A stretch of DNA of 30,291 nucleotides from a virus (lineage: Duplodnaviria; Heunggongvirae; Uroviricota; Caudoviricetes): positions 1 to 30,291 of the IMG/VR virus record IMGVR_UViG_2737471839_000025; one strand, written 5' to 3'. Numbering within the stretch: position 1 is the first letter of the stretch; each line of letters begins with the position of its first letter. This document shows, one piece after another, positions 18,001 through 21,000 of this stretch. Made by a program: the position numbers.

Positions 18001-21000
18001 CTGCTATTTCAGCCAGTGCGAGAAAAATACTGGCAAACAAGAGAAGAAGCCCAACGGGCTTTCCGCAAAAGAAACAGACAGCCTTGTATGGCTGTGGGAT
18101 TATGCCAACCGCTCACAGGCATTGTTCCGTGAGTTGTATCCCGCATTAAAACTGATTCAGTCTGGCTATTCCGGCATATGCCACGACTACGGCTATGAGT
18201 TCTCGTATATCATCGGGAGGGCGAGTGGCGTTTTAATTAATCACACGCGGGATATAGATATTTATGAGCCTGACGGGCCGACGAACCTTCTGGCATGGGA
18301 AAGGCTTAAGAACAAAGAGTTGCCGCCTTCACTGCATCGCTACTGACAATTGACAACTTAACAAACCCAGCTTCGGCTGGGTTTTTTATTGCTGAATTTT
18401 CAATATGAGAGGACATGACAATGAATGAGCTGATAAATAGCAGTGTCATCAAAATGACAAGCATTGAAATCGCTGAGTTGGTGGGAAGTCGTCCAGATAA
18501 CGTAAAAATATCAATAGAGCGCCTGGCTAAATCTGGAGTTATTCAACTTCCTGCATTGCAGGTTTTCGAAAAAAATCAATAACTTAGGACTGCGCCGTAG
18601 TGTCGAGGCTTACGTCTTCGAAGGCGAACAAGGTAAGCGCGACAGCATTATTGTCGTTGCCCAGTTGTCGCCGGAATTCACCGCTCGTCTTGTTGACCGT
18701 TGGCGAGAACTCGAAGGGGCAACCGCAAAGATCCTACAAACCTTTTCTTAGGCATTGCGCCTTGCAGCTGACCTTGAAGACAAGAAGGCTGAACTGGAGA
18801 AACAGCTTGCTCTCGCAGCACCTAAAGTTGAGTTTGCCGATCGCGTTGGCGAGGCCAGCGGAATTTTGATTGGAAACTTTGCAAAGGTTGTTGGAATTGG
18901 TCCAAACAAACTGTTTGCGTGGATGCGCGATCACAAAATCCTTATTGCTTCAGGTTCCCGGCGCAATGTGCCAATGCAGGAATATATGGATCGCGGCTAT
19001 TTCACAGTGAAAGAAACAGCGGTCAACACAAATCACGGAATACAGATATCGTTCACCACAAAAATCACCGGGCGTGGTCAACAGTGGCTGACCAGAAAGC
19101 TGCTCGATAACGGAATGCTGAAAGTAACAGGGGAGGCTGCTTAATGGCTAATCTACGCAAAGAAGCACGCGGCAGAGAATGCCAGGTACGTATTTACGGC
19201 GTATGCAATGGCAATCCTGAAACTACAGTTCTGGCACATTACCGGATGGCTGGAATTTGCGGAACGGGAATGAAGCCTGACGACCTGATCGGCGCATGGG
19301 CTTGTAGCGCGTGTCACGATGAAATCGACCGACGCACCCATAATCTCGACAACAAAGACGCCAGACTTTACCACCTCGAAGGCGTGATCAGGACGCAGGC
19401 GATACTGCTGAAGGAGGGGAAGATTAAGCCATGAACGAATATCAGTTTGTGCTTCCATATCCGCCGTCGCTGAACACCTACTGGCGAAGACGGGGAAGCC
19501 AATACTACATCAGCGATAAAGGCCAGAAATACCGAAAAGACGTTCAGCAAATCATCCGCCAACTCAAGTTAGACATTTTCACCAAATCACGACTCCGTAT
19601 CAAAGTCATCGCAGACGTTCCAGACTCCCGCCGCCGCGACCTCGACAACATCCTGAAAGGTTTACTCGACTCCCTTATCCACGCCGGATTTGCGGAAGAC
19701 GACGAGCAATTCGATGACATTCGCGTAATTCGTGGCGTGAAAGTACCAGGCGGAAGGCTTGGAATAAAAATCACCGAACTGGAGAACGTATGAACGCCAC
19801 AATTCAAACGATACCAGAGCTTCTTATCCAGACACGAGGCAATCAGACCGAAGTGGCGAGGATGCTTTCCTGCGCAAGAGGAACAGTGCTCAAGTACAAC
19901 CGAGACAGAAAAGGCGAGCGTCACGTAATAGTTAACGGCGTCCTGATGGTCAAACAGGGCAAGAGGGGAAGACGATGAGCATAAGAGAACTAAACCTCAC
20001 CAAAGAACAGCACGATTGGCTGAATGGCTGGCTTGAACTGTGGGGCGCATGGGTTTATTCAGGCCGCCTGGAAAAGCGCATGAGCAGCGTAATAGCGAAG
20101 TTCATGGAGAGCGTAGAGCCGGGAAGAGTTATGACAAGGCCAATGTGCAATGATGATGATGGAATGTTGATTTCTCAGGTCGTCGATTCCGTCATGTGCA
20201 TTGACAAGAAAGCCTTTGGCATCATCCTCAGCTACTACGCTCATGGATCTTCCAAGCATGCCATTGCATCTTACTATCATCGTGTCGCAAGACCGCGCAA
20301 GATGTTATGCCGGGGCGGCGGGCGTATTCAAAAACCATCGCTCGCAACCTGTCGCCGGGAAGTTGACGAAATCCTCAATGCTTCGTTGTTTATGATTTAC
20401 CCGGTTCTGGATAGTGCGTTTAAAAACCGGAAACGTGTAGAGAAAATTAAACATGTAGCATAGAACGTGTTGACATCATTGAGCAAATGAGCAACACTAT
20501 TCGCATAAGCTGCCGTTAGTGACTCTTAAGTTGCAACGGTGGCTTTTTTATTTGCACAACAGGTAAGAGCATTGAACCCGCAGACCTCGCGGAATTGGTG
20601 AAAGGTGCCGCGCAGTGCTCTTATCGTTGTGGTGAAGCTCAATGGCGAGCTAGCAGATAGGCGATAGTGAAAATACTAGTCATGTAGCTGCCCGCCGCGC
20701 GTACTGCAATCGGCAGCGCACCGATGGAAGCCGGTTCGATTCCGGCCGCCACAACCCAAACTGAGCCGTAGCCACTGGCTATCATGAATTCATCGGTGAT
20801 AGTTACGCTGCGGCCTTCTACACATGACCTTCGTGAAAGCGGGTGGCAAGAGGTTGCGCTAACAACCTCCTGCCTTTTTGCCCGTGCATATCGGTCACGA
20901 ACAAATCTGATTACTAAACACAGTAGCCTGGATTTGTTCTATCAGTAATCGACCTTATTCCTAATTAAATAGAGCAAATCCCCTTATTGGGGGTAAGACA

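What the first reader, a model, noticed from the sequence alone, without database searches (positions are those of the whole stretch)
18415..19144. Antirepressor gene inactivated by an A7 homopolymer frameshift and an in-frame TAG
An Rha-like N-terminal segment (MTMNELINSSVIKMTSIEIAELVG...) stops at TAA 18580..18582. The +1 frame continues the protein (…NNLGLRRSVEAYVFEGEQGKRDSIIVVAQLSPEF…) and the junction coincides with AAAAAAA at 18569..18575; deleting one A would fuse the frames. Further on, an in-frame TAG at 18749..18751 separates this from a C-terminal KilA-C-like segment. Together this indicates either decay of an antirepressor gene or a slippage-prone, possibly phase-variable or suppressor-dependent gene.
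Basis: seen in the sequence. Interest (0 to 1): 0.4.

Follow-up and report, generated by a model that had tools for sequence, protein, structure and literature searches.

The report
Dead roi gene in a prophage
This is an ordinary broken copy (pseudogene) of the phage regulatory gene roi in an E. coli lambda-like prophage. It was knocked out first by one extra A in a run of six and later by a stop-codon mutation, and the closest public genome already carries and flags the same damage.

Summary
The run is A7 at 18569-18575, with a premature TAA at 18580-82 and an in-frame TAG at 18749-51. Deleting one A rejoins the frames.

The gene is the orthologue of phage HK022 roi. After repair it is 83% identical over 240 aa. 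It has a KilAC/ANT C-terminal domain and lies in the nin region between P and Q.

About 95% of copies in E. coli genomes and viral contigs are one intact 723-nt ORF, with A6 and GAG (Glu) at these sites.

- **A7 + GAG:** a Shiga-toxin E. coli O111 clade, cryptic phage CP-1639 and some O157:H7 strains.
- **A8:** three genomes on those same backgrounds.
- **A9:** phage Stx2a_WGPS6, frame restored with an extra Lys.
- **A7 + TAG:** only the window and E. coli RM9088, where PGAP already says "frameshifted; internal stop".

So the order was replication slippage first, then GAG>TAG, plus P105L at an otherwise invariant residue. This is neutral decay of a dispensable accessory gene.

The A-tract is a mutational hotspot, with an independent A7 on a different allele. 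It is not a working phase switch, and the window encodes no suppressor tRNA. Interest is low.

The parts
18421..19144 (+). roi pseudogene, whole extent (724 nt; intact homologues are 723 nt / 240 aa)
   Evidence: After repair it is 83% aa identical over its full length to HK022 Roi. PGAP annotates the equivalent span in RM9088 as a pseudogene, 'frameshifted; internal stop'. Alignment A1.
18407..18413 (+). Shine-Dalgarno GAGAGGA serving ATG 18421
Evidence: Read from the sequence.
18421..18582 (+). Fragment 1: 53 codons (MNELINSS...VFEKNQ) plus premature TAA. It contains the helix-turn-helix part of the N-terminal DNA-binding domain.
   Evidence: The weak Pfam Phage_pRha match spans aa 12-98 of the repaired protein, so the frameshift cuts this domain in the middle. 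It matches phrog_15709, a PHROG family built from such truncated fragments.
18569..18575 (+). A7 homopolymer, the frameshift site (A6 in intact genes)
   Evidence: A6 is found in 92 of 97 IMG/VR contigs and A7 in 5. A8 and A9 variants occur in relatives.
18580..18582 (+). Premature TAA stop created by the frameshift
18575..18748 (+). Fragment 2: 58 codons in the +1 frame (INNLGLRR...KILQTFS). This is the remainder of the N-terminal domain plus the linker.
   Evidence: It is collinear with intact Roi proteins.
18735..18735 (+). Window-specific C>T change (Pro105>Leu) at a residue invariant in 71 intact copies
18749..18751 (+). In-frame TAG (GAG or GAA, Glu110, in all other copies)
   Evidence: A seed-constrained search finds the T only in RM9088 among 5,426 complete E. 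coli genomes.
18752..19144 (+). Fragment 3: 130 codons plus TAA. It holds the KilAC/ANT domain, and its last 329 nt (18816-19144) are the DNA-level ultra-conserved part of roi.
   Evidence: Pfam PF03374 E=1.3e-33. The last 329 nt of the gene are 97-99% identical to all alleles, including HK022. No Shine-Dalgarno sequence precedes the internal TTG 18755 or ATG 18923 (read).
18574..18586 (+). AATCAATAACTTA, a perfect match to the IHF core consensus WATCAANNNNTTR, abutting the A-tract (a lead only)
   Evidence: 3 matches in the window against 1.65 expected, so not significant alone. The island is kept in HK022 and in the divergent alleles L111-L113.
18363..18384 (+). Intrinsic-terminator-like hairpin plus T-run between ant and roi
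   Evidence: 9-pair stem, tail TTTATTGCTG
17612..18346 (+). Intact upstream antirepressor gene ant (ORF6N + P22_AR_C domains)
   Evidence: Annotated 'phage antirepressor Ant' in relatives.
17374..17559 (+). isrK sRNA (17374-17450) and C4-type antisense RNA (17476-17559) preceding ant
   Evidence: Rfam matches above gathering score: 74.7 and 66.7 bits. Compare the Gifsy-1 isrK-orf45-anrP locus.
19144..19434 (+). Intact downstream gene (YbcO/DUF1364). Its ATG overlaps the roi stop (TAATG), and it has its own SD, GGGGAGG, at 19130-19136.

Best explanation
The region is a pseudogene of roi. Roi is the nin-region DNA-binding protein first described in phage HK022, with an N-terminal helix-turn-helix domain and a C-terminal KilAC/ANT domain. 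The pseudogene sits in a lambda-like E. coli prophage integrated next to ybhC.

**Step 1 (shown by comparison).** A run of six A's (codons GAA AAA ATC, E-K-I) gained one A. This is the signature of replication slippage. Translation from ATG 18421 now ends at TAA 18580 after 53 residues, in the middle of the DNA-binding domain.

**Step 2 (shown by comparison).** On that already-dead allele, codon 110 changed from GAG to TAG and Pro105 changed to Leu. These changes are what is expected under relaxed constraint.

**Consequence (inferred).** No functional Roi is made. At most a 53-aa N-terminal fragment is produced. Downstream nin genes and Q should be unaffected. The next gene has its own ribosome-binding site, and N-antiterminated transcription is resistant to polarity.

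**Tolerance of the loss (inferred).** roi is an accessory gene:
- Lambda itself lacks it, and lambda nin5 deletions are viable (established knowledge).
- roi is broken repeatedly and independently in other prophages.
For: **Lesions and repair**
- The coordinates are exact, and deleting a single A rejoins the frames.
- The repaired protein is 83% identical over 240 aa to HK022 Roi. It hits Pfam ANT/KilAC at E=5e-33 and PHROG 63 'anti-repressor Ant' at E=2e-92.
- Phage records annotate the homologue as roi/Roi.
- Gene order is NinE-ant-roi-ybcO-rusA-ninH-Q.

**Intact copies are the norm**
- Intact 723-nt homologues have A6 and GAG/GAA: 97-3250, BR1220, FORC_069 and VT2-Sakai.
- 77 of 84 full-length IMG/VR copies are intact.
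- About 975 E. coli genomes carry the gene, mostly at A6 length.

**Allelic series**
- A7+GAG: O111 FWSEC0005, CP-1639, O157:H7 4276.
- A8+GAG: two O111 genomes and NJS001.
- A9+GAG: WGPS6.
- A7+TAG: only the window and RM9088.
- PGAP flags RM9088 'frameshifted; internal stop' and the A7/A8 copies 'frameshifted'.

**Order of events and constraint**
- TAG is found in 1 of 5,426 complete genomes, and only on the A7 background. The frameshift therefore came first.
- Changes at invariant residues are confined to frameshift lineages: P105L in the window, and L164R in the O111/WGPS6 lineage.

**Recurrent inactivation elsewhere**
- An independent A7 occurs on a 76%-identical 5' allele (L064).
- Other frameshifts occur in L034, L088, L107 and L112.
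- IS629 insertions disrupt roi in Stx2a phages (PMC4587872).
Against: - No reads are available, so the A7 length in this particular assembly cannot be verified directly. The shared TAG and A7 in RM9088 make an error unlikely.
- The 3' half of the pseudogene is still 97-99% identical to intact copies. Either decay is recent or the segment is kept homogeneous by recombination. The numbers of lineage-specific substitutions are too small for a dN/dS test.
- WGPS6's frame-restoring A9 could hint at selection to regain function.
- Whether a roi null is neutral or advantageous has not been tested here. The primary HK022 paper could not be read.
Confidence: 0.9

Rival explanations
1. Phase-variable (contingency) gene. 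The A-tract toggles Roi ON (A6/A9) and OFF (A7/A8) by slipped-strand mispairing, giving prophage populations a reversible switch.
For: - Tract lengths A6, A7, A8 and A9 all exist.
- A7/A8 and A8/A9 pairs occur on otherwise identical sequences.
- A7 arose independently on a different allele (L064).
- The tract accounts for 4 of 7 broken copies in the IMG/VR sample.
- WGPS6's A9 restores the frame.
Against: - A6-A9 tracts are short for a contingency tract.
- The O111 clade (about 40 complete genomes, plus Sanger-sequenced CP-1639 from strain 1639/77) is fixed at A7 with no reversion to A6.
- 92 of 97 IMG/VR copies are A6.
- The A8 calls could be long-read homopolymer errors.
- In the window, the TAG and P105L make any tract change irrelevant.
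- HK022-type alleles have no A-run at this site.
Confidence: 0.04
2. Recoded gene. Full-length Roi is still made by a +1 ribosomal slip of tRNA-Lys on AAA-A, or by transcriptional slippage that drops one A, combined with amber suppression or readthrough of the TAG.
For: - A +1 slip on GAA AAA A|ATC would regenerate exactly the wild-type E-K-I sequence.
- A-runs are known slippage sites (general knowledge).
Against: - The shifted architecture is not conserved. About 95% of homologues are a single ORF.
- There is no stimulatory context for +1 shifting. No stop or rare codon sits in the A site (it is AAU), and no SD-like element lies 3 nt upstream (read).
- A -1 shift would not rejoin the frames.
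- No tRNA of any kind is encoded in the window.
- TAG is unique to two genomes.
- Two inefficient events in series would yield negligible product.
Confidence: 0.02
3. Sequencing or assembly artefact. The real genome has A6 and GAG.
For: Homopolymer length errors are common in long-read and 454 assemblies. The A7/A8 differences between otherwise identical O111 genomes could be such errors.
Against: - Both lesions are shared with RM9088. That is an independent complete genome whose prophage has a different late region and carries stx1a.
- The TAG is a substitution, not a homopolymer error.
- A7 is also present in Sanger-era CP-1639 and in about 45 complete genomes.
Confidence: 0.02
4. Three (or two) genuine separate small genes, or a neo-functional truncated 53-aa HTH peptide retained for its own sake.
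For: - Fragment 1 keeps its SD and start, and would be translated.
- PHROGs contains families made of such fragments: phrog_15709, 9438 and 15968.
- CP-1639 annotates two 'roi' CDSs.
Against: - Intact single-ORF homologues are the overwhelming majority, and HK022 Roi is one protein.
- The break falls inside the roughly 90-aa N-terminal domain.
- Fragments 2 and 3 have no start codon with an SD.
- The PHROG fragment families are simply annotation of broken copies.
Confidence: 0.02

Closest known systems
Phage HK022 Roi (roi gene, nin region; Clerget & Boccard 1996, J Bacteriol 178:4077, cited in PMC3430580 and PMC4587872)
   Same: - 83% aa identity over the whole 240 aa after repair, with the C-terminal 120 aa essentially identical.
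- Same position between the replication genes and Q.
- The 3' 329 nt are 98.5% identical at the DNA level.
   Different: - The window copy is broken (A7, TAG, P105L).
- The HK022 allele has a different 5' module (75% nt identity) with no A-run at the frameshift site.
- Roi's reported properties are recalled from the abstract, not verified here: DNA binding inside its own gene next to an IHF site, and inhibition of lytic growth in IHF mutants.
E. coli RM9088 Stx1a prophage locus FRV13_RS25355 (RefSeq NZ_CP042298.1)
   Same: - 99.2% identical.
- Identical A7 and TAG.
- Already annotated 'phage antirepressor KilAC domain-containing protein; frameshifted; internal stop'.
   Different: - RM9088 lacks the window's P105L and has its own F>Y change.
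- Its prophage carries stx1a, a NUMOD4 gene and a different Q/late region.
roi of cryptic phage CP-1639 and the E. coli O111 clade; O157:H7 strain 4276
   Same: Same 5' allele and same A7 frameshift. roi is annotated as two CDSs in CP-1639 and 'frameshifted' by PGAP.
   Different: - They retain GAG at codon 110.
- The O111 lineage has L164R.
- They are followed by ninG instead of ybcO-rusA.
Stx2a_WGPS6 gp39 (YP_009909378.1)
   Same: Same allele family. It carries the L164R marker of the frameshifted lineage.
   Different: Its tract is A9, so the frame is restored with one extra Lys (241 aa). It appears to be a pseudo-revertant reached through further slippage.
Homopolymer contingency loci (slipped-strand phase variation)
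   Same: An intragenic mononucleotide run whose length varies among close relatives and sets the reading frame.
   Different: - The tract is short.
- The OFF state is stably inherited across a clade.
- There is no evidence of reversible switching.
- The window copy carries additional irreversible lesions.

Membership tests
Roi (HK022 roi orthologues) | Full-length sequence similarity to HK022 Roi | tested here: met
   tblastn of the repaired protein against HK022: 201/241 identical, E=1e-131
Roi (HK022 roi orthologues) | Location in the nin region between replication gene P and antiterminator Q | tested here: met
   Order P (15132-15833) ... ninB, dam, ant, roi, ybcO, rusA, ninH, Q (19975-20463)
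Roi (HK022 roi orthologues) | Uninterrupted ORF of about 240 aa | tested here: not met
   Frameshift at 18569-18575 and TAG at 18749-18751. It is therefore a pseudogene of the family, not a functional member.
Roi (HK022 roi orthologues) | Binds a site within its own gene adjacent to an IHF site | not testable with these tools
   Only a consensus IHF core match at 18574-18586, conserved in divergent alleles but not above chance. The primary paper is not held.
Pfam PF03374 ANT / KilAC domain proteins | Score above the gathering threshold for the domain | tested here: met
   114-116 bits against a cutoff of 25.3, aa 126-228 of the repaired protein
   20.1 bits against a cutoff of 29.9, E=1e-3, aa 12-98. 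This is a distant resemblance only.
Antirepressor (functional class, e.g. P22 Ant) | Binds and inactivates a phage repressor | not testable with these tools
   The name comes from the domain family only. The neighbouring ant gene (ORF6N + P22_AR_C, preceded by isrK/C4 RNAs) is the better candidate for that role.
Phase-variable contingency locus | Tract-length polymorphism among close relatives | tested here: met
   A6, A7, A8 and A9; independent A7
Phase-variable contingency locus | Reversible ON/OFF switching within a clonal lineage, with no other inactivating lesions | tested here: not met
   The O111 clade is fixed at A7-length with 2-3 A8-length copies and no A6. The window adds TAG and P105L.
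Programmed frameshift / transcriptional-slippage gene | Split-frame architecture conserved in homologues, with stimulatory signals | tested here: not met
   77 of 84 IMG/VR copies and most E. coli copies are a single ORF. No A-site stop or rare codon and no upstream SD-like stimulator are present.
Suppressor-dependent (amber) gene | Cognate suppressor tRNA available; TAG conserved | tested here: not met
   No tRNA in the window. TAG is present in 1 of 5,426 genomes. Host suppressor status is not testable.

The most novel reading that the evidence does not exclude
The A-run at roi codons 51-53 is a low-frequency slippage switch that lambdoid and Stx prophage populations exploit. A6 and A9 would make Roi; A7 and A8 would not. 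On this reading, loss of Roi frees lytic growth from its dependence on host IHF, which would explain why roi is knocked out repeatedly and sometimes restored (WGPS6). The window would then be a copy that became locked OFF by a later TAG. A related possibility is that the A-tract/AATCAATAACTTA element is the IHF site reported inside roi, so that tract length also tunes IHF binding.
Probability: 0.05. Interest if true: 0.45.

Novelty: already known. Interest (0 to 1): 0.12.

Why it matters
It matters little in itself. It is a routine prophage pseudogene that RefSeq already flags in the nearest relative.

The modest value is practical:
- It shows that the lesions are inherited, not assembly errors.
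- It corrects the gene's identity: roi, not a demonstrated antirepressor.
- It documents that roi is recurrently inactivated in Stx and lambdoid prophages, with one A6 run as the main hotspot. This argues that Roi is dispensable for prophage maintenance.
- It could serve as a lineage marker (A7, L164R, TAG) for tracking nin-region modules among STEC phages.

Tried and rejected
- **Primary paper:** I tried to read the primary Roi paper (PMC178163), but it is not held. Roi biology therefore rests on secondary citations and on my memory of the abstract.
- **CP-1639 literature:** a search for CP-1639 plus roi found nothing.
- **Solved structures:** the search gave only chance hits with E>0.3.
- **IS element guess:** I guessed that ORFs at 3881-5039(-) were an IS element, which would have indicated general prophage decay. 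This was wrong. They are antirepressor-like and Ea22-like genes.
- **IHF consensus:** the match at the tract is not statistically significant in the window. Most of my loci were retrieved with that very motif, so only HK022 and L111-L113 are informative. I kept it as a lead only.
- **Counting tract lengths:** I considered counting them in all E. coli genomes with about 43-nt queries. I rejected this because BLAST's low-complexity masking of A7+ would block seeding. I used alignment-length arithmetic on the top 60 hits plus direct checks of representatives instead.
- **Odd-length hits:** H29 and H34 turned out to be intact alleles without the tract. H25 is a different frameshift.
- **Structure prediction and large protein searches:** I did not run them because they could not change the verdict.
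Full report
**1. Observation**

- An ORF with a Shine-Dalgarno sequence runs into AAAAAAA at 18569-18575 and stops at TAA 18580-18582.
- The +1 frame continues from 18575 (INNLGLRR...) to an in-frame TAG at 18749-18751.
- The same frame then carries a further 130 codons to TAA 19142-19144.
- Removing one A gives a single 240-aa frame interrupted only by the TAG.

An A7 run is not unusual by itself, since the window has seven homopolymers of 7 or more. The case rests on comparison with homologues.

The probable true start is ATG 18421 rather than 18415.
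- GAGAGGA at 18407-13 lies 7 nt upstream of 18421.
- The 18415 ATG is not conserved.
- PGAP uses the equivalent of 18421 in relatives.

**2. Identity of the gene**

The repaired protein has a strong KilAC/ANT domain (PF03374, E=5e-33, aa 126-228). It has only a sub-threshold Phage_pRha match (20.1 bits against a cutoff of 29.9, aa 12-98). It matches PHROG 63 'anti-repressor Ant' at E=2e-92.

Phage records call the homologue roi/Roi: VT2-Sakai H0108, 933W L0096, H-19B, the PA phages and CP-1639. tblastn against HK022 gives 201/241 identities end to end, so this is the orthologue of HK022 roi.

The published literature available to me describes Roi as follows.
- It is a conserved gene downstream of ant in Stx phages and is related to HK022 Roi (PMC3430580).
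- It is a putative DNA-binding protein implicated in control of lytic growth (PMC4587872).
- Both papers cite Clerget & Boccard 1996, which I could not read.
- From memory of that abstract, Roi binds a site within its own gene next to an IHF site, and roi missense mutants let HK022 grow on IHF-deficient hosts.
- Antirepressor activity has not been shown for Roi.

**3. Context**

The window is a lambda-like prophage next to ybhC. Its genes, in order, are:
- int
- an AntA-type and another antirepressor-like gene
- exo/bet/gam-side genes
- N
- a Ser/Thr kinase
- cI (S24 peptidase type)
- cII, O, P, ninB, dam, ninE
- ant, roi, ybcO, rusA, ninH, Q
- lysis genes, terminase and portal

The other regulatory genes I checked are intact, so roi is not part of wholesale decay.

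Upstream of ant, Rfam finds isrK (17374-17450) and a C4-type antisense RNA (17476-17559). This arrangement resembles the Gifsy-1 isrK-orf45-anrP locus. A strong terminator-like hairpin (18363-18384) separates ant from roi.

The downstream ybcO-like gene overlaps the roi stop (TAATG) but has its own SD, GGGGAGG, at 19130-36.

Only window 5501-19815 is closely related (97.7-99.1%) to the RM9088 Stx1a prophage. The late regions differ.

**4. Comparative evidence on the two lesions**

About 1,025 of 5,426 complete E. coli genomes carry the gene.

| Tract and codon 110 | Copies | Status |
|---|---|---|
| A6 + GAG/GAA | 97-3250, BR1220, FORC_069, VT2-Sakai | intact, 723 nt |
| A7 + GAG | O111 FWSEC0005, CP-1639 (roi annotated as two CDSs), O157:H7 4276 | PGAP 'frameshifted' (the two E. 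coli genomes) |
| A8 + GAG | two O111 genomes otherwise identical to the A7 allele, and the NJS001 plasmid | PGAP 'frameshifted' |
| A9 + GAG | Stx2a_WGPS6, otherwise identical to the NJS001 allele | 241 aa, intact, extra Lys |
| A7 + TAG | window and RM9088 only | PGAP 'frameshifted; internal stop' (RM9088) |

Further counts support this picture.
- A seed-constrained search for the TAG finds RM9088 alone among 5,426 genomes.
- Among the 60 best E. coli hits, 45 have A7-length alignments, 3 have A8-length and 12 have A6-length.
- In IMG/VR, 92 contigs have A6 and 5 have A7.
- Of 84 full-length IMG/VR copies, 77 are intact and 7 are broken. Four of the broken copies are A7 and three carry other frameshifts.

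**5. Order of events and mutability**

A7+GAG is widespread and no A6+TAG copy was found. The frameshift therefore preceded the nonsense mutation.

Lineage markers support a stepwise history.
- L096 has A7 without L164R.
- The O111 copies have A7 and L164R, an invariant Leu in 71 intact copies.
- Then come A8 and A9 on that background.
- The window and RM9088 branch acquired TAG.
- The window alone also acquired P105L, at an invariant Pro.

L064 carries A7 on the Sakai-type 5' allele, which is 76% identical in the first 148 nt. This is an independent event.

Other copies are broken elsewhere: L034, L088, L107 and L112. Published Stx2a phages have IS629 inserted in roi.

The A6 run is thus a mutational hotspot, and roi is a frequent casualty.

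**6. Why this is not phase variation, recoding or an artefact**

*Phase variation.* The O111 clade keeps A7 from strain 1639/77 (CP-1639, Sanger era) to recent isolates, with no A6 revertant. The tract is short. The window copy has two further lesions.

*Recoding.*
- A +1 slip on AAA-A would recreate the wild-type sequence. However, there is no A-site stop or rare codon and no SD-like stimulator.
- The split architecture is not conserved.
- The TAG would still terminate translation.
- The window encodes no tRNA.

*Artefact.* Both lesions are shared with an independently assembled genome in a different prophage context.

*Separate genes.* This is refuted by the intact majority and by HK022 Roi.

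**7. Mechanism and consequence**

Shown:
- +1 A slippage in an A6 run, followed by GAG>TAG and P105L.
- Translation from 18421 ends after 53 residues, inside the roughly 90-aa N-terminal domain.

Inferred:
- No functional Roi is made.
- Downstream genes are unaffected.
- The loss is neutral. If HK022 biology transfers, it may be mildly advantageous, because it would remove Roi's inhibition of lytic growth when IHF is limiting.

Supporting knowledge: lambda lacks roi, and nin5 deletions are viable.

**8. Additional structure of the gene**

roi is mosaic.
- The 5' 148 nt vary down to 74% identity between alleles.
- The 3' 329 nt are 97-99% identical in every allele, including HK022.
- The pseudogene's 3' half is therefore still nearly pristine. 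Either decay is recent or recombination homogenises this segment.

The A-tract abuts AATCAATAACTTA, a perfect IHF core consensus. This island survives in alleles whose flanks differ. It may be the IHF site reported within roi. However, the match count is not above chance, and the encoded I-N-x-L-G motif could explain the conservation.

**9. Verdict**

This is a correctly observed, correctly interpreted but ordinary prophage pseudogene. It is already flagged as such in the closest public genome. Novelty: already known. Interest: low.

Noticed in passing
window 17374-17450 (+) and 17476-17559 (+): Rfam isrK (74.7 bits) and C4 antisense RNA (66.7 bits) lie directly upstream of the intact ant gene (17612-18346). 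The arrangement resembles the Gifsy-1 isrK-orf45-anrP(-isrJ) locus, where a dual-function sRNA unlocks translation of an antirepressor-like protein. A terminator-like hairpin at 17429-17445 fits the IsrK terminator.
   Followed up: partly
window 18574-18586 (+); also 1371-1383 (+): AATCAATAACTTA, abutting the A-tract, is a perfect IHF core consensus (WATCAANNNNTTR). It is retained in HK022 and in divergent roi alleles. It may be the IHF site reported inside roi, but the match count is not above chance (3 matches against 1.65 expected). The match at 1371-1383 (TATCAATTTGTTG) is the lambda attP H'-type core next to int.
   Followed up: partly
window 18816-19144 (last 329 nt of roi) vs L114 (HK022), L111-L113, L007: The KilAC-encoding 3' 329 nt of roi are 97-99% identical at the DNA level in all alleles. 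The 5' 148 nt diverge to about 74%. This is a sharp mosaic boundary and an unusually conserved DNA segment. It may be a recombination linker or may carry cis-acting sites.
   Followed up: partly
L006 (Stx2a_WGPS6) 1542-2267; L011 (NJS001 plasmid) 1542-2266: WGPS6 has A9 in the tract, which restores the reading frame with an extra Lys. It still carries L164R, the marker of the frameshifted lineage. NJS001 has the same allele with A8. This looks like a pseudo-reversion by two further slippage steps.
   Followed up: yes
window 2935-3558 (-), 3881-4681 (-), 17612-18346 (+), 18421-19144 (+); sRNA-Xcc1 at 3598-3686 (-): The prophage carries four antirepressor-family genes: AntA+P22_AR_C, a phrog_1726 anti-repressor, ORF6N+P22_AR_C Ant, and the roi pseudogene. 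An Rfam sRNA-Xcc1 match (69.3 bits) lies between the first two. Redundancy may help explain why loss of roi is tolerated.
   Followed up: no
window 10745-11791 (-): A eukaryote-type Ser/Thr protein kinase gene (Pkinase E=2e-46) lies in the immunity region between N and cI. Next to it are a RuvC-like resolvase gene (11785-12246) and a DUF3024-type gene.
   Followed up: no
PHROG families phrog_15709, phrog_9438, phrog_15968: These PHROG families (59, 121 and 73 aa; 'unknown function' or 'anti-repressor') correspond to the N- and C-terminal pieces of broken roi genes. They are database families built from pseudogene fragments.
   Followed up: partly
window 8540-8598 (-): Rfam Lambda_thermo (the cIII thermoregulator element) scores 88.5 bits, as expected for a lambda-like early-left operon.
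   Followed up: no
window 16319-16600 vs L013 22161-23014: Relative to the RM9088 prophage, the window lacks the NUMOD4-domain gene between ninB and dam. Similarity then ends after rusA (19815). The window has a different Q and no stx genes between Q and the holin.
   Followed up: partly
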